Virus record (IMG/VR): IMGVR_UViG_3300043466_002831
Span: 57,364 to 121,363 of that record
Strand: one strand, 5' to 3'
DNA from: a virus
Lineage: Duplodnaviria; Heunggongvirae; Uroviricota; Caudoviricetes
Length of the DNA stretch: 64,000 nt
Shown here: one piece after another, positions 8,533-57,292 of the stretch
How the letters are laid out: each line of letters starts with the position of its first letter
Numbering within the stretch: the stretch's first letter is position 1
Made by a program: the position numbers and the translations under genes
Notes under the pieces: model-generated
The model's database searches: none
Seen by the model: only the letters and a program-made list of their open reading frames with translations
Told to the model about the DNA's origin: nothing

Positions 8533-10752
8533 ATGAGATTATTAACTATTTTATTTTTGACCCTATTAACGTCAATAGGGTATACACAGTATTGCCCTGC
8601 ATTAGGTCCTGACCAATTACTTCCATGTGGTGTTGGTACAACAACATTAACCGCTGACCTATCCCAATGTGGTGGAGGTGGGGCAAACCCAAATCAAACA
8701 ACAAACTACGGTGTAACTAATATACCTTACGTTGCTCAAACAAACACAGGAACAAATTTGTTTATGACGGATGACTCCCAACAAGGGCCGTTCAGTATTG
8801 GATTTAACTTCTGTTTCTTTGGTACGACATACACTCAATTCTATGTTGGCTCTAACGGGTGGATTTCATTCGGAGCGGGACAACCAACAACCTTTACGTC
8901 TCAACCAATCCCAACAGGTAATGGTTTGGTACCTAAAAATTGTATCATGGGTCCTTGGCAAGATTGGCATCCTGGTCTTGGAGGTCAAATAAAATACCAA
9001 GTTCAAGGAGTTGCACCATGTAGAAAACTTGTAGTTAGTTGGATTAACATGCCGATGTTTTCATGTACAGGTAATCAAGGTACATTCCATATTGTAATAT
9101 ATGAATCGTCTAACTATATTGAGAATTATATTCAAAATAAACCTGCGTGTTTGCAGTGGCAAGGTGGGACTGCGACACAAGGAATTCATAATTCATTAGG
9201 TACTATTGGTATTGCGGTTGCTGGTAGAAACTCAACTGCGTGGACAGCAACAAACGATGCGTACAGATGGACACCAAGTGGTCCTGTAGTTACACCAACA
9301 TTAACTTGGTATCAGGTAGGTAATCCAACTCCAATAGGAACGGGACCAACAATTACGGTGACACCACCTGCGGCAGGAGCACAATATACTTGTAAATTTG
9401 TTTATCCTATTTGTAACGCGGGATGGTCAAATTGTAATTTAAGTACAGGTAACTTAGGACCCGATACGGTCTTTGTTGTGCCAGGTCCACCAAACTTACC
9501 ACCACCAATTGTTACGACATTCAACCCAAATTGTGAGGGTAGTTGTGATGGTGCAATCAATGTGGTTTCAAATGGAGGAACAGGTGTAAGTACCATTTCT
9601 TGGAATGGACAACCACCATTATTTACATTAACCAACTTATGTTCGGGAATTTATTCATTTACTATTGTGGATGCGGCAGGTTGTAATGTTTCAGGTACGG
9701 CAACTTTAGTTAATCCACCACCTGTAATCGCAAATCCAATCATTGCGTCAGATACGGTATGTTATCAGTCAAACAATATGGTATATACTACAACTGATTT
9801 AGGTGTGGGATATACATATCAATGGTCATCTGTTGGTAATATTGTGTCAGGTCAAGGGAATGATACGGTTGTTGTTGATTGGTCAGTATTACCTGCGGGG
9901 TTTATACCAAATGCTGTTGACATGATTGCCGTCAGTCCAAATGGATGTTTAAGTTTCCCCGTATCGTTTGACATCACAATATTCAATGTACTTCCTGTGA
10001 TAACACCTGTTGGACCATTCTGTTCTAACGATGAGTTCACTACGTTAAATGCAACACCAATAGGCGGAGTATTCAGTGGAACAGGGGTAATGGGTAATGA
10101 CTTTTATCCGTCTAATGCGGACACATTAAACAATATTATCACCTACACCTATACTCAAAGTGGATGTATCTTTGATACCACTACGGACATCATAGTATAT
10201 GAGCAACCAATCTTATCTCAAATCACTCCATACAACGAGTTCTTTGAAGTTTGTGACGGTGATTCAATACCAAGTATATATAGTGTAACTTCAACCGTTC
10301 TTGGTGGATATAATGAATGGACATTATTGGGTAACACAACTGAGTCGGATAACTTTAACATTGCTTGGGATGCATTTGGAACATTTGTATTATCAGTTGT
10401 AAGTTATGTTAATGGATGTGCATCACCACAACAACAAACAACAATCACAATTGCTCAATGTCCTCAAGAATTATTATACATTCCAAATTCATTTACACCT
10501 GATGGTAATGAGTTTAATAATACATGGAGACCCATAATTACTTCAGGGTTTGATAACACAGAATACCGAATGACGTTATATAATAGATGGGGTGAAATTA
10601 TATGGGAATCTCAAGACATCAACGAAGGATGGGATGGAACTTATAATAATAGTATAGTTCCTGTTGGTTCATATGTTTGGACGGTACAACTCAAGGCGTT
10701 AAAGACCGATTATAGACAGATATTGTCAGGTAGTTTGAATGTTTTAAAATAA
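8533..10752 (+). CDS. large secreted surface protein with T9SS type-B (gliding-motility-associated) C-terminal sorting domain
   Basis: Signal peptide MRLLTILFLTLLTSIGYTQ. C-terminus YIPNSFTPDGNEFNNTWRPI...YRMTLYNRWGEIIWESQDINEGWDG...GSYVWTV fits the T9SS type-B C-terminal domain pattern. Terminator follows. Confidence 0.7.
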   Translation: MRLLTILFLTLLTSIGYTQYCPALGPDQLLPCGVGTTTLTADLSQCGGGGANPNQTTNYGVTNIPYVAQTNTGTNLFMTDDSQQGPFSIGFNFCFFGTTYTQFYVGSNGWISFGAGQPTTFTSQPIPTGNGLVPKNCIMGPWQDWHPGLGGQIKYQVQGVAPCRKLVVSWINMPMFSCTGNQGTFHIVIYESSNYIENYIQNKPACLQWQGGTATQGIHNSLGTIGIAVAGRNSTAWTATNDAYRWTPSGPVVTPTLTWYQVGNPTPIGTGPTITVTPPAAGAQYTCKFVYPICNAGWSNCNLSTGNLGPDTVFVVPGPPNLPPPIVTTFNPNCEGSCDGAINVVSNGGTGVSTISWNGQPPLFTLTNLCSGIYSFTIVDAAGCNVSGTATLVNPPPVIANPIIASDTVCYQSNNMVYTTTDLGVGYTYQWSSVGNIVSGQGNDTVVVDWSVLPAGFIPNAVDMIAVSPNGCLSFPVSFDITIFNVLPVITPVGPFCSNDEFTTLNATPIGGVFSGTGVMGNDFYPSNADTLNNIITYTYTQSGCIFDTTTDIIVYEQPILSQITPYNEFFEVCDGDSIPSIYSVTSTVLGGYNEWTLLGNTTESDNFNIAWDAFGTFVLSVVSYVNGCASPQQQTTITIAQCPQELLYIPNSFTPDGNEFNNTWRPIITSGFDNTEYRMTLYNRWGEIIWESQDINEGWDGTYNNSIVPVGSYVWTVQLKALKTDYRQILSGSLNVLK

Positions 10753-31321: not shown

Positions 31322-31546
31322 ATGTTAAAGAAATTTATTTTTAGTGGTTGGGGATTATTCTGTCTCACATTTATCTACTTACACGTGTTATCGATATACT
31401 TTGAGTATGTTGTGAATCGAGAAGTAGCAAAAGAATTACAGCTTGTATTGACGTTGGGAGTTTTGGTCAGTACAGCTTTTTTATTAAAACTCATAGTTAA
31501 TTTCATTCAAAACAATTTAAAACAAAACGAAAAACAAAATGATTAG
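31322..31546 (+). CDS. small membrane protein
   Basis: Two hydrophobic helices (GWGLFCLTFIYLHVLSIYF; LVLTLGVLVSTAFLLKLIV), from the internal ATG. Confidence 0.45.
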   Translation: MLKKFIFSGWGLFCLTFIYLHVLSIYFEYVVNREVAKELQLVLTLGVLVSTAFLLKLIVNFIQNNLKQNEKQND

Positions 31547-32483
31547 TACTTTAATTTTTTTAGGATTTTTAATCGCCGCAGCTCTTGTTGCAATTAAAAC
31601 AAAAGACAAAATGTTCGTTACCACTCAAACACGATATGGTGACGAAAATGATTTTCAACCTATGTGGTTAGTAAAACCTATCGGGTTATTTTTAGCAGGT
31701 ATTATCCTTGCATCAGTTCAACCATACTCAATTGAGAAAATCGATGCGGGTCACAAAGGTTTGAAAATCAATTTGATTGGTGACCAACGTGGTGTGTCAA
31801 GTTACCAATACAAAACAGGTTGGGTAGTTTATAATACATGGACAGAACAAGTATTGGAGTTTCCAACATACCAACAACACATCGAGTATGAGAATCAGGG
31901 TGTAATCCTTAAAGGTGGATTCTCTGCAAGTATCAAACCAACATTTAACTATTCTTTGAAAGAAGATGCGATTGGTGAGATGTTCGTTAACTTACGTAAA
32001 GACATTCGTGAGGTAGAACAAAACTGGTTGAAAAACGCAATCATCGGAGCGGTTAATGACGTGGCGAATACATGGGAGGTAGATAGTATCTTTAATCACC
32101 GTCAACAATTCGAATCTTCAATTGTTATTGAGTGTAATAAACGACTATCAAAATGGTTTAATGTGAGTCAGTTGAGAACTAACATCGTTCCACCTGAATC
32201 TCTACAAGAAGCAATTATCGCTAAAACCAAAGCAATTCAACAAGCGGAAGCTGCCGAACAACAAGCACTTACAGCATTTGCTGACGGTAAACGTAAGGTT
32301 GCTGTGGCACGAGCTGACTCCGCAGAAACAATCATCAAGGCGAACGCATCGGCAATGTCCATGAAGATTAAACAACGAGAACTTACTCCACTATACGTTG
32401 AGTTCTTAAAGGCTCAGGCTTGGGATGGAAAACTCCCGACAACTGTGGCGGGAAGTTCAGGAACATTTTTGAATATAAAATAA
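31539..32483 (+). CDS. SPFH/band-7 (prohibitin/stomatin-like) domain protein with N-terminal membrane anchor
   Basis: N-terminal TM segment ISTLIFLGFLIAAALVAI. C-terminal Ala/Gln-rich helix AIQQAEAAEQQALTAF...KVAVARADSAE typical of the SPFH family. Confidence 0.6.
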   Translation: MISTLIFLGFLIAAALVAIKTKDKMFVTTQTRYGDENDFQPMWLVKPIGLFLAGIILASVQPYSIEKIDAGHKGLKINLIGDQRGVSSYQYKTGWVVYNTWTEQVLEFPTYQQHIEYENQGVILKGGFSASIKPTFNYSLKEDAIGEMFVNLRKDIREVEQNWLKNAIIGAVNDVANTWEVDSIFNHRQQFESSIVIECNKRLSKWFNVSQLRTNIVPPESLQEAIIAKTKAIQQAEAAEQQALTAFADGKRKVAVARADSAETIIKANASAMSMKIKQRELTPLYVEFLKAQAWDGKLPTTVAGSSGTFLNIK

Positions 32484-40290: not shown

Positions 40291-40351
40291 TTTTTTTTTA
40301 CATTTCCAAGACACACTTTCCAACTTTTCTTGTCTATATTTGTATTCGTAA

Positions 40352-40747
40352 ATGAAAAAAATATTACTACTAACCTTATTACTCCCAATACAACTGTTAT
40401 CACAGTATGTAAAAACACCAACTCACTTTGATAGTGAGGGAACATCCAAAAACATTATCAAGGGACATGTTAAAATGTTTTTAAAAGACACTGTTGTATA
40501 TACTGTTGAGAAAAAAAATGAAAGGTTTGTAACCAGTTGGTTACCACCATCTCAAGTAGAAAATAAATTGAACAAAGTTTTCGATTTAGGTAAGTTAGAA
40601 TACGTTAGTCGAACTAACGGGGGTTACATTTTTTCTATTGCGGTCATTAACAAAACTGATGATACAAAGGTAATCAACTATTGTAAGTTCCATGTTGATA
40701 GGATAACACAAAAGATTGAAGAGATAGAGATTTTAATTGGTGAATAA
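40352..40747 (+). CDS. secreted protein or lipoprotein
   Basis: Signal peptide MKKILLLTLLLPIQLLSQ. Confidence 0.5.
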   Translation: MKKILLLTLLLPIQLLSQYVKTPTHFDSEGTSKNIIKGHVKMFLKDTVVYTVEKKNERFVTSWLPPSQVENKLNKVFDLGKLEYVSRTNGGYIFSIAVINKTDDTKVINYCKFHVDRITQKIEEIEILIGE

Positions 40748-40750
40748 TAC

Positions 40751-41866
40751 ATGAAAAAAATAATAATGCTGTTAATGCTTTTGGTCTCCTTAGCAACGGC
40801 GAATGCAAAATGTGATTGGAGCTCACTAAAACTCCAACAATGGAACAATCGTAATGTTTATAAATGGTACGTAAGTGGTCAAGCACTTGACGACACTTGT
40901 GTTGATTGGATGTTTATGGTTTACGATTTTCAAACCAAGAAAACAGATACTGTGTATGATAACAAAGGCATTTGTGAGGTTCAATTTAATGTTAAAGGTA
41001 AATACAAAATGTATTTGAAGGTATGGAACAAATGTGAAAAATGCGACACTACCCTTTACCGTGAAGTAAACATTATTCAATTTCCAGGTGCTAAAGTAAC
41101 TAGTACCCCATCAACTTTAAATTGTAAAAAATATAAGTTTGAGTTGAGTTACATTAAAGGTTTTTCAGTTAAAGACACTTGTATGGATTACTATTTAGTG
41201 TTTTATTCAGGACCTTGGATGGCTAAGATGACTCAAAGTGAGTGGGATAATTTAACTGATTACCAAATCGGAATGGAGTATGATTTTCCAGATGCTGACT
41301 TTATAGATTATACTGAAACACGAATTGTAGATTATACTTTTAAAAACTCAGGTCGTGTGTTGATGATTGCTCAGTGGTATAATAAATGTATTGGTCAGGA
41401 TACATTCATGTTTAGGAAGTTAGATGTTTGTGGAACAACTACAAAGCCTAAATGTGATTGGTCTAAAGTGAAATTAGCCTATAATAACAAATGTAATACT
41501 TATGTTTTTGAATTAGGTTCACTTGATACTTGTATTAGTTATACAACTTATATTTACAATTTCAAAACTCAAAAATGGACCGATACATTTAAAACAAGAA
41601 TTTTTACTAAAACATTTGCCGATACTGGTAAGTATAAATTATATGTTGTAGGCAGAAATAAATGTGGTGGATGTGATACTGCTTATTCTAATTTTGTAAC
41701 CGTAACTTGTCAACCAACATCAAGTGTTAATGAAGTTATTAAAGGTGAACCTAAATTGATTGGAATGTATGATATGATGGGTCGTCCTGTCCATAATGTT
41801 CGTAAAGAAGATATTATAATTTATCTTTACGATAACGGTACAACCAAAAAAGTATTGATACCCTAA
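40751..41866 (+). CDS. secreted protein with duplicated Cys-containing ~90-aa domain and T9SS type-A C-terminal sorting tail
   Basis: Signal peptide MKKIIMLLMLLVSLATANA. Internal duplication KCDWS...KWY...KGKYKMYLKVWNKCEKCDT versus KCDWS...GKYKLYVVGRNKCGGCDT. C-terminus KLIGMYDMMGRPVHNVRKEDIIIYLYDNGTTKKVLIP resembles a Por secretion tail. Confidence 0.6.
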   Translation: MKKIIMLLMLLVSLATANAKCDWSSLKLQQWNNRNVYKWYVSGQALDDTCVDWMFMVYDFQTKKTDTVYDNKGICEVQFNVKGKYKMYLKVWNKCEKCDTTLYREVNIIQFPGAKVTSTPSTLNCKKYKFELSYIKGFSVKDTCMDYYLVFYSGPWMAKMTQSEWDNLTDYQIGMEYDFPDADFIDYTETRIVDYTFKNSGRVLMIAQWYNKCIGQDTFMFRKLDVCGTTTKPKCDWSKVKLAYNNKCNTYVFELGSLDTCISYTTYIYNFKTQKWTDTFKTRIFTKTFADTGKYKLYVVGRNKCGGCDTAYSNFVTVTCQPTSSVNEVIKGEPKLIGMYDMMGRPVHNVRKEDIIIYLYDNGTTKKVLIP

Positions 41867-41900: not shown

Positions 41901-42332
41901 ATGAGTAAAGTAAAAATTTCTACAAGTAAAGGTGATATGATTGCCGAGTTGTATGACAACGAAACACCAATCACCACAGACAACTTTAAAAGTTTGATTA
42001 GTAAAAAATTCTATGACGGATTGAACTTCCACAGAGTTATTCCAAACTTCGTGGTTCAAGGTGGATGTCCAAATGGAATGGGTAATGGTGGACCAGGATA
42101 CAACATCCCATGTGAAGTAACCGCACCAAAACAATTTCACGAAAAAGGTGTGTTGTCAATGGCTCACGCTGGACGTAATACAGGTGGTTCTCAGTTCTTC
42201 ATCTGTCATAACAGACAAGGAACACAACACCTTGACGGAAACCACACATGTTTTGGTAAAGTTATGGAAGGTCTTGACATCATCGACCAAATCCAACAAG
42301 GAGATAAAATCAATTCAATCGAAATGATTTAA
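41901..42332 (+). CDS. ppiB: cyclophilin-type peptidyl-prolyl cis-trans isomerase
   Basis: FHRVIPNFVVQGG...GPGY...KGVLSMAHAGRNTGGSQFFI...HTCFGKV cyclophilin signature blocks. Confidence 0.8.
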   Translation: MSKVKISTSKGDMIAELYDNETPITTDNFKSLISKKFYDGLNFHRVIPNFVVQGGCPNGMGNGGPGYNIPCEVTAPKQFHEKGVLSMAHAGRNTGGSQFFICHNRQGTQHLDGNHTCFGKVMEGLDIIDQIQQGDKINSIEMI

Positions 42333-42387: not shown

Positions 42388-43065
42388 ATGGCAAGAGTAG
42401 TAAGACTTACGGAACAAGAATTAACTGGATTACTTCAGAACATTATAAATATGGCTTTTAATCCAAGTAAGTCGTCATCAACAAGTAGTACAAGCTCTAC
42501 GGATTCAGGTGACGATATTGAGGGTACTCCAAAAGACACTTCAATAGGTAAGGTATCTGCCAAAGGACAAGCGTTATTAAATAATCCAATTTTTAAGAAA
42601 AAATTAAAAGAAATATCAAACGCAATTCATATTGATGAAAACTCAATCATTAAATTAATGAAACATGAATCAGGTCTTAATCCTGAAATTAAAAATAGTA
42701 TTGGGTGTGTTGGGTTGATTCAGTTTTGTCCTGGTGGAGGAATGCCAAAAACAATTAATGGTAAGTCATACACTTTGGATGAATTAAGATACGACTTGGA
42801 AGCTCAGATGGATGCGATTAAAGAATTTTGGACTAAAGGATATAACAATGGTAAAATAAAACAACCTGCAGACTTGTATCTTTATAATTTCTTCCCTGTT
42901 GCTGCAGGAAAACCTGATGATTTTGTATTACAAGCTAAAGGGTTATCGGCATCAACTGTGGCTAAGGCTAATCCAGGATTTAATAAAAAATTGGGTAAAC
43001 CTGCTTCATCACCATTAACTGTTGGTGATATGAAACAATATTACCGACAAACAGGGATGGCATAA
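42388..43065 (+). CDS. lytic transglycosylase (SLT domain) with NTM-family N-terminus
   Basis: MARVVRLTEQELTGLLQNIINMA, then an STSSTSSTDS linker, then HESGLNPEIKNSIGCVGLIQF (SLT catalytic-region pattern ES...N...S..GA.GLMQ). Confidence 0.6.
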   Translation: MARVVRLTEQELTGLLQNIINMAFNPSKSSSTSSTSSTDSGDDIEGTPKDTSIGKVSAKGQALLNNPIFKKKLKEISNAIHIDENSIIKLMKHESGLNPEIKNSIGCVGLIQFCPGGGMPKTINGKSYTLDELRYDLEAQMDAIKEFWTKGYNNGKIKQPADLYLYNFFPVAAGKPDDFVLQAKGLSASTVAKANPGFNKKLGKPASSPLTVGDMKQYYRQTGMA

Positions 43066-56832: not shown

Positions 56833-56842
56833 ACTTTTTTTG

Positions 56843-56850
56843 TATCTTTG
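56843..56850 (+). promoter_or_regulatory. -7 promoter box TATCTTTG, 4 nt upstream of ATG 56855
   Basis: TAnnTTTG-N4-ATG; supports the revised start of the signal-peptide gene. Confidence 0.5.
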
Positions 56851-56854
56851 TTAT

Positions 56855-57292
56855 ATGAAAACGATACTCACAACAATATTACTTCTTTTATCATTGACTG
56901 TCAAGTCCCAACAGTGTGATGTTTTATATGTCCCAAGTCAAAAAAGTTTGGTTGCTTCATACAATTATAAACAAATTGGTTTATATGTTGGAGGGTATTA
57001 TGTGACGACTTTTCCACAACCATTTATCTACACAACACCTTTGTCTATTGTAAACCGTGTTGGATTAACGTTTGTAAATAAAAACAATACGTTTAGTGTT
57101 ATGGGTGGTGCATATCTTAAAACTTACTTTGACCGTGTAGAGATGACACCTGATATTTGGGTTAAAATTTACCCGATTAGAATGTTGACTGGAGATAAAT
57201 CCAATCTTGATTTTGCTGTAGGCGTAAATTATATGAACGGATTTAGACTAGGAATTGGATTATCTATTCCATATTGGAGTATTTATAAGTAA
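56855..57292 (+). CDS. small secreted, possibly outer-membrane beta-barrel-like protein
   Basis: Signal peptide MKTILTTILLLLSLTVKSQQ from the ATG at 56855 (TATCTTTG-N4 upstream); alternating-hydrophobic, aromatic-rich body. Confidence 0.45.
   Translation: MKTILTTILLLLSLTVKSQQCDVLYVPSQKSLVASYNYKQIGLYVGGYYVTTFPQPFIYTTPLSIVNRVGLTFVNKNNTFSVMGGAYLKTYFDRVEMTPDIWVKIYPIRMLTGDKSNLDFAVGVNYMNGFRLGIGLSIPYWSIYK

What the first reader, a model, noticed from the sequence alone, without database searches (positions are those of the whole stretch)
40751..41866. Second T9SS substrate: secreted protein with duplicated Cys-domain and type-A Por secretion tail
An independent gene, preceded by another signal-peptide protein at 40352-40747, ends in KLIGMYDMMGRPVHNVRKEDIIIYLYDNGTTKKVLIP. 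This resembles the type-A T9SS sorting tail. It contains two ~90-aa repeats, each with a KCDWS...C..CDT cysteine pattern. Both T9SS C-terminal domain classes are thus represented on the phage.
Basis: partly seen in the sequence, partly recalled or inferred. Interest (0 to 1): 0.65.

Follow-up and report, generated by a model that had tools for sequence, protein, structure and literature searches.

The report
Phage secreted protein with miniature T9SS tail
A large uncultured phage of Flavobacteriales-type bacteria encodes a secreted protein of three Ig-like domains that ends in a ~47-residue, three-stranded "mini" version of the type IX secretion sorting domain, a tail that curated models miss but that also ends hundreds of unrelated secreted proteins in the likely host lineage.

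Summary
ORF 40751-41866 encodes a 371-aa protein with a Sec-type signal peptide, a duplicated Cys-rich beta-sandwich (37% identity, E=5e-14) flanking a diverged third copy, and the quoted C-terminal tail.

The tail is not a canonical type-A CTD. It gets no hit to PF18962 or TIGR04183 even at E<=10, while 10 canonical CTDs from related bacterial genomes score 34-61 bits. It has 3 strands, not 7.

It is nevertheless a real modular element:
- A tail-only profile finds 430 cluster representatives, matched at the extreme C-terminus of unrelated signal-peptide proteins (FISUMP, LamG, LRR, arylsulfotransferase passengers).
- It gives 548 confirmed hits in reference genomes; the 80 best are almost all Flavobacteriales.
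- It aligns colinearly to canonical CTDs as strand 3 / gap / strands 6-7 (hhalign P=5.6e-4; 0 of 250 shuffles).
- Its best PDB fold match is the RemA CTD in the T9SS translocon, though at a weak E-value.
- It matches, by description, the experimentally validated "short CTDs" of Prevotella intermedia.

The same phage encodes a bona fide type-B CTD protein. In a related phage the two genes are adjacent.

Verdict: a new variant of a known kind, of moderate interest.

The parts
40335..40342 (+). TATATTTG, a match to the Bacteroidota -7 promoter element TAnnTTTG, 17 nt before the ATG of the upstream gene. Possible promoter of a two-gene unit.
   Evidence: Sequence. The motif lies within 60 nt upstream of 9 of 57 genes, against 2.8 +/- 1.7 in random windows. 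The promoter role is inferred.
40352..40747 (+). Upstream 131-aa ORF with a signal-peptide-like N-terminus. It ends 3 nt before the target gene and is probably co-transcribed. Function unknown.
   Evidence: No Pfam, NCBIfam or PHROG match.
40751..41866 (+). Target gene: 371-aa secreted protein (stop codon included).
40751..40807 (+). Sec signal peptide, residues 1-19 (MKKIIMLLMLLVSLATANA); predicted SPase I cleavage after ANA.
   Evidence: Sequence features. AF2 models a low-confidence helix at 2-17. Conserved in homologs.
40808..41080 (+). Cys domain 1 (residues 20-110): Ig/FnIII/PKD-like beta-sandwich with invariant C21, C50, C95, C98.
41081..41434 (+). Middle domain (residues 111-228): a diverged copy of the same sandwich with an insertion. 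Invariant C125, C144, C213, C227. The most conserved part of the family.
41435..41710 (+). Cys domain 3 (residues 229-320): a repeat of domain 1 (37% identity). An optional module, absent from the ~280-aa form of the family. Weak sub-threshold PKD hit.
41711..41752 (+). Flexible linker (residues 321-334), AF2 pLDDT <50 at residues 323-331. It carries the conserved P-T-S-(S/G/N)-(V/I) motif, the candidate counterpart of the 'PT/GI' sortase-cleavage motif of P. intermedia CTDs.
   Evidence: Motif description from PMC11969387. Cleavage is inferred, not shown.
41753..41863 (+). Three-stranded tail (residues 335-371): strands 336-340, 355-360 and 365-369. Invariant D341, G344, R345, Y360, G363, K367. 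Proposed short T9SS C-terminal sorting domain.
8533..10752 (+). Second cargo gene on the same phage: 739-aa signal-peptide protein with a bona fide type-B T9SS CTD (residues ~650-724).
   Evidence: PF13585 E=4.5e-13, 49.6 bits (cut-off 27). TIGR04131 47.4 bits (cut-off 35)..

Best explanation
The gene encodes a phage protein that is exported from the infected cell. Steps marked 'shown' rest on results here; the rest are inferred.

1. The Sec signal peptide takes the protein to the periplasm. Shown: the sequence features only.
2. There the three homologous Ig/FnIII-like sandwiches fold, presumably stabilised by disulfides between their invariant cysteines. Inferred.
3. The last ~47 residues form a linker carrying a PTS(S/G)(V/I) motif followed by a single three-stranded sheet. 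This is a miniature type-A-like T9SS C-terminal domain. It corresponds to strands 3, 6 and 7 of the canonical seven-stranded CTD, and keeps the D..G(R/K) turn, the aromatic of the penultimate strand and the near-C-terminal lysine. Shown: topology, colinear remote homology, modularity and taxonomic distribution.
4. By analogy with the short CTDs of Prevotella intermedia, the tail is proposed to dock on PorV/SprA of the host T9SS. That would drive export across the outer membrane, possibly followed by cleavage in the linker and release or surface attachment. Inferred.
5. The passenger has no enzyme fold, so it most likely acts as a binding or adhesion module on the host surface. Possible roles are masking receptors (superinfection exclusion) or altering adhesion. 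Speculative.

The host is probably a Crocinitomicaceae/Fluviicola-like member of the Flavobacteriales, whose own secreted proteins carry the same tail.
For: Location and modularity:
- A profile of the tail alone finds 430 cluster representatives at E<=1e-3. The match lies at the extreme C-terminus of proteins 50-635 aa long.
- These proteins start with signal peptides and carry unrelated passengers: FISUMP, LamG, LRR, arylsulfotransferase, PKD, fn3.
- In 80 bacterial loci, 90 of 96 matches end within 4 residues of the stop codon.
- The distance from D..GR to the C-terminus is 30-35 residues in ~250 copies.

Distribution:
- 548 confirmed stretches in species-representative genomes. The best 80 are almost all Flavobacteriales (Crocinitomicaceae, Cryomorphaceae, Salibacteraceae, Vicingaceae), with a few Saprospiraceae and Chitinophagaceae, and are multi-copy per genome.
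- The same loci encode canonical type-A CTD proteins that pass TIGR04183.

Remote homology:
- hhalign of the tail profile against 15 canonical CTDs gives score 21.2, P=5.6e-4, end to end in the order strand 3 / 14-column gap / strands 6-7.
- 0 of 250 column shuffles reach that score. The N-half alone gives P=5.9e-5. The C-half lands on the terminal strands but is not significant alone, P=0.17.

Structure:
- AF2 gives a three-stranded sheet both in the full protein and in isolation, pLDDT ~80.
- The best Foldseek match among 350,542 PDB chains is 8gl6_D, the RemA CTD in the T9SS translocon; rank 6 is 8gl8_D. Only ~11 distinct PDB sequences match a type-A CTD profile.

Precedent:
- P. intermedia short CTDs are 40-55 aa with a single three-stranded sheet equivalent to strands 3, 6 and 7. 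They have a PT/GI cleavage motif, and cleavage and glycosylation were shown by mass spectrometry (PMC11969387).
- Type-A CTDs carry an almost invariant, functionally important Lys close to the C terminus (PMC10994853). K367 is invariant here.

Phage context:
- A bona fide type-B CTD protein lies in the same window.
- In a related 180-kb phage contig, the homolog lies 8 nt downstream of a 1511-aa CHU_C protein.
- In IMG/VR, phages attach the same tail to a second, unrelated 627-796-aa passenger.
- Phage-encoded T9SS cargo has been reported before (PMC7468147).
Against: - No curated T9SS model recognises the tail: PF18962, TIGR04183, TIGR04131, PF13585 and NF033708 give 0 of 49 full-length proteins at E<=0.01. 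Only 1 of 50 isolated tails hits PF18962, at E=0.065.
- The Gly of the canonical GxY motif is replaced by (I/L)-I-Y in the phage and Crocinitomicaceae versions.
- The first hhalign run, with only 10 CTDs, was weak (P=0.014).
- I could not compare the tail directly with P. intermedia short-CTD sequences, because none are held as text. Equivalence to that class rests on length, topology and the motif description.
- No experiment links this tail to the T9SS.
- The passenger's function is unknown, and the host is inferred.
Confidence: 0.65

Rival explanations
1. The tail is a canonical type-A (Por_Secre_tail) T9SS CTD.
For: It contains motifs that look like the type-A D..G and aromatic...K motifs. 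The host lineage uses type-A CTDs.
Against: There is no hit to PF18962 or TIGR04183 at E<=10 for the protein or for the tail. Ten canonical CTDs from related genomes score 34-61 bits in the same tool. The tail is ~47 aa with 3 strands instead of ~75 aa with 7 strands, and it lacks the PNP strand.
Confidence: 0.03
2. The tail is a modular C-terminal sorting or anchoring element of Flavobacteriales that works through some route other than PorV/SprA-dependent type-A export. For example, it might use a different carrier protein, act as an outer-membrane or LPS-binding anchor, or serve as a beta-augmentation handle for a surface complex.
Against: The tail aligns colinearly with canonical type-A CTDs at P=5.6e-4, and 0 of 250 shuffles reach that score. 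The near-C-terminal Lys and the D..G turn are conserved. The topology is the one shown experimentally for T9SS short CTDs in P. intermedia (PMC11969387). The gene is adjacent to a type-B T9SS cargo gene in a related phage.
Confidence: 0.22
3. The tail is a single YD/RHS-repeat-like beta-hairpin, or a chance beta-hairpin, with a structural role and no sorting role.
For: The only PDB sequence hits of the tail profile are Rhs-family YD repeats (YD..GR...Y.YsDG), at E=0.18-1.1 with no stretch passing threshold.
Against: The similarity is not significant and covers only 16-22 residues. YD repeats occur in long arrays inside proteins. This element occurs once, always within 4 residues of the C-terminus, on signal-peptide proteins with many unrelated passengers.
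Confidence: 0.05
4. The protein is an Ig-like virion decoration or adhesin, like Hoc or other phage Ig-domain proteins, and is not exported.
For: The passenger is three tandem Ig/FnIII-like domains, a fold common on phage particles (own knowledge). The passenger family is seen only on contigs of <=187 kb among the homologs listed.
Against: It has a typical cleavable Sec signal peptide and 8 invariant cysteines in the two domains shared by all forms, which suggests an oxidising compartment. The tail is shared with chromosomal secreted proteins of bacteria. There is no PHROG match. It lies next to secreted-protein genes, not structural genes.
Confidence: 0.05

Closest known systems
Short T9SS CTDs of Prevotella intermedia (Ye et al. 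2025, Open Biol, PMC11969387)
   Same: Length is ~40-55 aa from the cleavage motif to the C-terminus. The fold is a single three-stranded sheet equivalent to strands 3, 6 and 7 of long CTDs. A flexible linker carries a P-T/G-I-like motif. There is a Y..G+basic turn motif and an invariant basic residue near the C-terminus. The tail sits on signal-peptide proteins with LRR, fn3 or adhesin-type passengers.
   Different: The lineage differs: environmental Flavobacteriales and their phages, not oral Bacteroidales. The GxY-I motif is (I/L)-I-Y-x-Y without the Gly. The paper states that P. intermedia was the only species seen with short CTDs. Cleavage and glycosylation are untested.
Canonical type-A T9SS CTD (TIGR04183 / PF18962 Por_Secre_tail)
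   Same: It is an extreme C-terminal sorting domain on Sec-exported proteins of Bacteroidota. The D..G(K/R) strand and the terminal aromatic...K strands align colinearly. The top fold match is the RemA CTD.
   Different: It has three strands instead of seven, ~47 aa instead of ~75, and no PNP strand. It scores nothing against either curated model.
Phage-encoded T9SS cargo in 'Cryophage' (Bellas et al. 2020, Nat Commun, PMC7468147)
   Same: A phage carries genes for proteins with T9SS sorting domains, presumed to hijack the host secretion system. The genes are flexible, island-like accessory genes.
   Different: Cryophage cargo have recognised type-A sorting domains on enzymes (endoglucanase, GH39) and on a PA14-domain protein. 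Here the signal is an unrecognised short variant on an Ig-like, non-enzymatic passenger, alongside a type-B cargo.
Type-B T9SS CTD (TIGR04131 / PF13585 CHU_C)
   Same: It is present on the same phage (ORF 8533-10752) and is adjacent to the homolog in a related phage. It belongs to the same secretion system.
   Different: It is a different domain family. The target's tail shows no similarity to it.

Membership tests
Type-A T9SS CTD (TIGR04183 / PF18962) | Scores above the curated cut-off of the family HMMs | tested here: not met
   No hit at E<=10 for the whole protein or for the 53-aa tail. 0 of 49 other tail-bearing proteins hit at E<=0.01. Positive control: 10 of 10 canonical CTDs from the same bacterial loci score 33.8-60.8 bits against a cut-off of 23.
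Type-A T9SS CTD (TIGR04183 / PF18962) | Seven-stranded beta-sandwich of ~70-100 residues (PMC4804311 title; PMC10994853) | tested here: not met
   AF2 gives three strands in ~37 residues after a disordered linker, both in the full protein and in isolation.
Type-A T9SS CTD (TIGR04183 / PF18962) | Extreme C-terminal position on a protein with an N-terminal Sec signal peptide | tested here: met
   The signal peptide is judged from sequence features only.
Type-A T9SS CTD (TIGR04183 / PF18962) | Almost invariant, functionally important Lys close to the C terminus (PMC10994853) | tested here: met
   K367 is invariant in 119 homologs. K is 93-100% conserved at the equivalent position in all three sets of tails.
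Type-A T9SS CTD (TIGR04183 / PF18962) | Secretion depends on the T9SS (SprA/PorV) | not testable with these tools
   Needs genetics and secretion assays.
Short (three-stranded) T9SS CTD, as in P. intermedia (PMC11969387) | 40-55 residues from the cleavage site to the C-terminus | tested here: met
   P322 to P371 is 50 residues. The distance from D..GR to the end is 30-35 residues in ~250 copies, with the upstream motif ~16-19 residues before the D.
Short (three-stranded) T9SS CTD, as in P. intermedia (PMC11969387) | Single three-stranded sheet equivalent to strands 3, 6 and 7 of long CTDs | tested here: met
   AF2 gives three strands. hhalign maps them onto the D..G strand and the last two strands of canonical CTDs, with a 14-column gap.
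Short (three-stranded) T9SS CTD, as in P. intermedia (PMC11969387) | Motifs: PT/GI cleavage motif in a flexible linker; Y..G + basic residue; GxY-I (or GxN); invariant K/R | tested here: inconclusive
   PTS(S/G/N)(V/I) lies in a linker with pLDDT <50, and Y-D-x-x-G-R and K367 are present. The GxY Gly is absent: the tail has (I/L)-I-Y-L-Y instead. The comparison is with the paper's description only, because its sequences are not held.
Short (three-stranded) T9SS CTD, as in P. intermedia (PMC11969387) | CTD cleaved and the new C-terminus glycosylated (mass spectrometry) | not testable with these tools
   Needs proteomics of infected cells or of Crocinitomicaceae.
RHS / YD repeat | Tandem arrays of YD repeats forming a shell; significant match to YD-repeat profiles | tested here: not met
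   There is a single copy, at the C-terminus only. The PDB Rhs hits have E=0.18-1.1 with no stretch passing. There is no Pfam RHS/YD hit.
PKD domain (PF00801 / PF18911) | Score above the gathering threshold | tested here: not met
   PF00801 scores 15.4 bits against a cut-off of 23.5, E=0.02, at residues 264-307. The fold search shows only a generic FnIII/Ig-like sandwich.

The most novel reading that the evidence does not exclude
Environmental Flavobacteriales (Crocinitomicaceae, Cryomorphaceae and relatives) use a large class of miniature (~47 aa, three-stranded) T9SS sorting signals that Pfam and NCBIfam do not annotate, so part of their secretome is invisible to current annotation. Their large phages have captured this signal, placed it on at least two phage-specific passengers and clustered them with type-B cargo. 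This lets the phage route its own Ig-like proteins through the host T9SS to remodel the surface of the infected cell.
Probability: 0.5. Interest if true: 0.65.

Novelty: new variant of a known kind. Interest (0 to 1): 0.55.

Why it matters
Short three-stranded T9SS signals have so far been reported only in Prevotella intermedia. If this tail is one, they are widespread in environmental Bacteroidota: 430 clusters at 50% identity, and 548 genomic hits from one narrow pattern. Current T9SS cargo predictions based on TIGR04183 or PF18962 would then miss hundreds of secreted proteins in Crocinitomicaceae and their relatives.

It would also define a ~47-residue minimal export tag, which could be useful for engineering secretion. 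It would show that large freshwater phages carry small sets of T9SS cargo genes (a type-B CTD protein plus a short-CTD protein). That extends the single earlier report of phage-encoded T9SS cargo. The tail also gives a marker for predicting the phage's host.

Tried and rejected
- Pfam, NCBIfam and PHROGs on the protein, on the tail and on the upstream ORF found no informative family, apart from a sub-threshold PKD hit.
- Megablast and tblastn against INPHARED phages found nothing for the region, the protein or the 901-aa neighbour.
- tblastn of two tail variants against PLSDB plasmids found nothing.
The tighter A6 alignment worked.
- The search for homologous proteins with five Bacteroidales-like tails returned a single hit, because the word index is unsuitable for 48-aa queries. 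This search was wasted.
- The first hhalign run against only 10 canonical CTDs was weak (P=0.014; 5 of 300 shuffles reached it). It became convincing only with 15 CTDs.
- A plain HMM of canonical CTDs does not detect the tail.
- The YD-repeat resemblance was considered and rejected.
- The P. intermedia paper holds no short-CTD sequences or supplements as text, so a direct comparison was not possible.
- A link between the downstream cyclophilin and the translocon PPI subunit could not be established.
- The second phage passenger (627-796 aa) has no Pfam family.
Full report
**Observation**

ORF 40751-41866 (+) encodes a 371-aa protein that ends exactly in the quoted tail. Its N-terminus, MKKIIMLLMLLVSLATANA|KC, has the charged, hydrophobic and AxA regions of a Sec signal peptide. 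This is judged from the sequence; AF2 also models a low-confidence helix at 2-17.

The duplicated Cys domain is real. Residues 19-110 and 231-320 are 37% identical over 91 aa, E=5e-14. The middle domain (111-228) is a third, diverged copy, E=0.002. AF2 with a 119-sequence alignment (mean pLDDT 76.6) gives three beta-sandwiches, a disordered linker (323-331), and three short strands at 336-340, 355-360 and 365-369. Foldseek against the PDB returns only tandem FnIII/Ig-like ectodomains such as cytokine receptors and fibronectin, and no enzyme.

The upstream ORF 40352-40747 exists, looks signal-peptide-bearing, and ends 3 nt before the target's ATG.

**The gene family**

There are 604 homologs in metagenomes. 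They come in a ~371-376-aa form and a ~280-aa form that lacks domain 3. Both keep the linker and tail. Eight cysteines and the tail residues D341, G344, R345, Y360, G363 and K367 are invariant over 119 sequences.

Among the listed homologs, the longest contigs are 124-187 kb, with phage-like gene content. The window itself is phage-like. It has a T4-type RNA ligase/tail-fibre attachment catalyst, a thymidylate synthase and several PHROG-only families, but no relative in INPHARED.

Between related phages the target is 77-79% identical. That is more conserved than the shared RNA ligase (51-68%) or the Band_7 protein (37%), while gene order is shuffled.

The suggested HMM test is negative. Neither the protein nor the isolated 53-aa tail matches PF18962 or TIGR04183 at E<=10. 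The test is able to detect such domains: ten canonical CTDs taken from the bacterial loci found later score 33.8-60.8 bits on TIGR04183, against a cut-off of 23. With three strands in ~47 residues and no PNP strand, the tail is not a member of the canonical type-A family.

The claim that the phage also carries the other CTD class is verified. ORF 8533-10752 (739 aa, signal peptide) passes PF13585 (49.6 bits, cut-off 27) and TIGR04131 (47.4 bits, cut-off 35).

**What the tail is**

A profile of the tail alone (30 phage-family tails, 54 positions) was searched exhaustively against 1.84 billion cluster representatives. It finds 430 proteins at E<=1e-3 and 39 at E<=1e-10. The match sits at the very C-terminus of proteins 50-635 aa long.

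Twenty-nine of the 149 listed representatives checked carry the Cys-domain passenger. The rest are unrelated signal-peptide proteins, or fragments, ending in ..K-x-L-I-x-I-x-D-x-(L/M)-G-R-E......N-x-x-L-I-Y-x-Y-S-D-G-(S/T)-x-E-K-V-F-x-x-E. Their passengers are typical extracellular modules: FISUMP, LamG, LRR, arylsulfotransferase, PKD, fn3 and BNR. None of 49 is recognised by any curated T9SS CTD model of type A, B or C, and only 1 of 50 isolated tails touches PF18962, at E=0.065.

Some of these proteins lie on 1.5-2.6-Mb contigs, so they are on bacterial chromosomes. A scan of one genome per species with a single narrow tail pattern gave 548 confirmed stretches. The best 80 are almost all Flavobacteriales (Crocinitomicaceae including Fluviicola, Crocinitomix, Brumimicrobium and Lishizhenia; Cryomorphaceae; Salibacteraceae; Vicingaceae), with a few Saprospiraceae and Chitinophagaceae. 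They are multi-copy, with at least 7 loci in one MAG.

In those loci 90 of 96 matches end within 4 residues of the stop codon. The geometry is fixed: D..GR to the C-terminus is 30-35 residues in ~250 copies, and a conserved G-I-x-E-L (bacteria) or P-T-S-(G/N)-V (phage) motif lies ~16-19 residues upstream. The tail is therefore a modular, host-type, strictly C-terminal element. This is the best-supported conclusion (confidence about 0.85).

**Relation to T9SS CTDs**

The same bacterial loci encode canonical type-A CTDs. hhalign of the tail profile against 10 of them was weak (P=0.014; 5 of 300 column shuffles reached it). It nevertheless aligned the tail in a specific order: strand 1 onto the 'i.i.D..Gk.v' strand, a 14-column gap, then strands 2-3 onto 'G.Y....K..'.

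With 15 canonical CTDs the same end-to-end alignment scores 21.2, P=5.6e-4, with the two C-termini coinciding. None of 250 shuffles reaches that score (null 9.3 +/- 2.1). The N-half alone gives P=5.9e-5. The C-half is not significant alone (P=0.17) but lands on template columns 69-93 of 94.

**Literature**

Ye et al. 2025 (PMC11969387) describe 48 'short CTDs' in Prevotella intermedia. They are 40-55 aa long and form one three-stranded sheet whose strands equal strands 3, 6 and 7 of long CTDs. They carry a PT/GI cleavage motif in a flexible linker, a Y..G+basic motif, GxY-I, and an invariant K/R. Cleavage and C-terminal glycosylation were shown by mass spectrometry for five of them. The paper states that P. 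intermedia was the only species seen with short CTDs.

The tail here reproduces the length, the topology (independently derived), the linker motif, the Y-D-x-x-G-R turn and the lysine. It lacks the Gly of GxY.

Lauber et al. 2024 (PMC10994853) report that an almost invariant, functionally important Lys close to the C terminus is the only conserved residue of type-A CTDs that contacts the translocon. K367 is invariant here. Bellas et al. 2020 (PMC7468147) reported phage-encoded type-A cargo, so that concept has a precedent.

**Phage context**

In a related 180-kb contig (L083) the homolog lies 8 nt downstream of a 1511-aa signal-peptide protein with PKD and CHU_C (type-B CTD) domains, and is followed by a GDSL lipase. 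IMG/VR holds 42 loci with the tail on contigs up to 252 kb. Thirty-two carry the Cys passenger and 10 carry an unrelated 627-796-aa signal-peptide protein without a Pfam family. So phages use the tail modularly too.

TAnnTTTG, the Bacteroidota -7 promoter element (own knowledge), lies within 60 nt upstream of 9 of 57 genes, against 2.8 +/- 1.7 expected. One copy is at 40335-40342, ahead of the two-gene unit.

**Mechanism proposed**

- Shown: the architecture, the modular C-terminal tail, its distribution, its remote colinear homology to type-A CTDs, and its three-stranded topology.
- Inferred: Sec export; folding of disulfide-stabilised Ig-like domains in the periplasm; docking of the short CTD on PorV/SprA; export across the outer membrane; and possibly cleavage in the PTS|S linker, followed by release or surface attachment.
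- Speculative: the passenger acts as a binding module at the host surface, in superinfection exclusion or adhesion.

**Rivals**

| Rival | Confidence | Comment |
|---|---|---|
| Canonical type-A CTD | 0.03 | Refuted for family membership. |
| Modular sorting or anchor element using another route | 0.22 | Fits the distribution data, but not the homology or the precedent. |
| YD-repeat-like or chance hairpin | 0.05 |; not significant, and the wrong architecture. |
| Virion decoration | 0.05 | Argued against by the signal peptide, the invariant cysteines and the host-type tail. |

**Verdict**

The tail is not a member of the type-A family as defined by its models and fold. It most likely works like one, as a miniature three-stranded variant. 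This variant is unannotated and widespread in environmental Flavobacteriales, and large phages have co-opted it. Novelty: new variant of a known kind. Interest: 0.55.

Noticed in passing
window 955, 2264, 11445, 25869, 26869, 29097, 34371 (motif a); 32550, 35804, 36756, 39720, 42388, 7210 (motif b): Many otherwise unrelated ORFs start with one of two recurring ~20-aa N-terminal motifs: 'MK(Y/I)IITE(S/E)Q(Y/F)..' or 'M..(I/V)(V/I)RLTE(S/A)DL.RIV.(K/R)VISEQ'. This may be a shared N-terminal module (targeting, packaging or assembly signal) on a dozen phage proteins.
   Followed up: no
window 8533-10752: A 739-aa signal-peptide protein with a bona fide type-B T9SS CTD: PF13585 49.6 bits and TIGR04131 47.4 bits, both above cut-off. 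It also has a weak PKD_6 hit. Its CTD-containing relative (1511 aa) is adjacent to the target's homolog in phage contig L083.
   Followed up: partly
window 41901-42332: A cyclophilin-type PPIase (PF00160, E=1.7e-42) without a signal peptide lies directly downstream of the cargo gene. The T9SS translocon contains a PPI subunit of unknown function (PMC10994853). No link could be established: that subunit is not among the 60 best PDB matches listed.
   Followed up: partly
window 56840-57292: A 150-aa ORF with a signal peptide (MKTILTTILLLLSLTVKSQQ) and an aromatic-rich C-terminus (...GLSIPYWSIYK) reminiscent of an outer-membrane beta-signal. It has no family match.
   Followed up: no
L019 (CP034120.1, 265668-271796): A record labelled Glaciecola amylolytica (Gammaproteobacteria) encodes a tail-bearing protein 62% identical over 385 aa to one from Brumimicrobium oceani (L025). 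The record may be mislabelled or contaminated, or this may be a horizontal transfer.
   Followed up: partly
L116-L125 (IMG/VR contigs), e.g. L121:1934-4144: A second phage-borne passenger family (627-796 aa, signal peptide, no Pfam family) carries the same short tail, preceded by a conserved 'YDYC.G.W.GP.P.R' motif.
   Followed up: partly
window 42388-43065 and 31539-32483: An SLT-type lytic transglycosylase-like protein that carries N-terminal motif b, and an SPFH/Band_7 protein conserved among the related phages (37% identity to its L083 counterpart).
   Followed up: no
L083:9196-9876: A GDSL-family lipase with an N-terminal membrane or signal anchor lies immediately after the type-B cargo and short-tail cargo gene pair in the related 180-kb phage. 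Together they suggest a small secreted-protein island.
   Followed up: no
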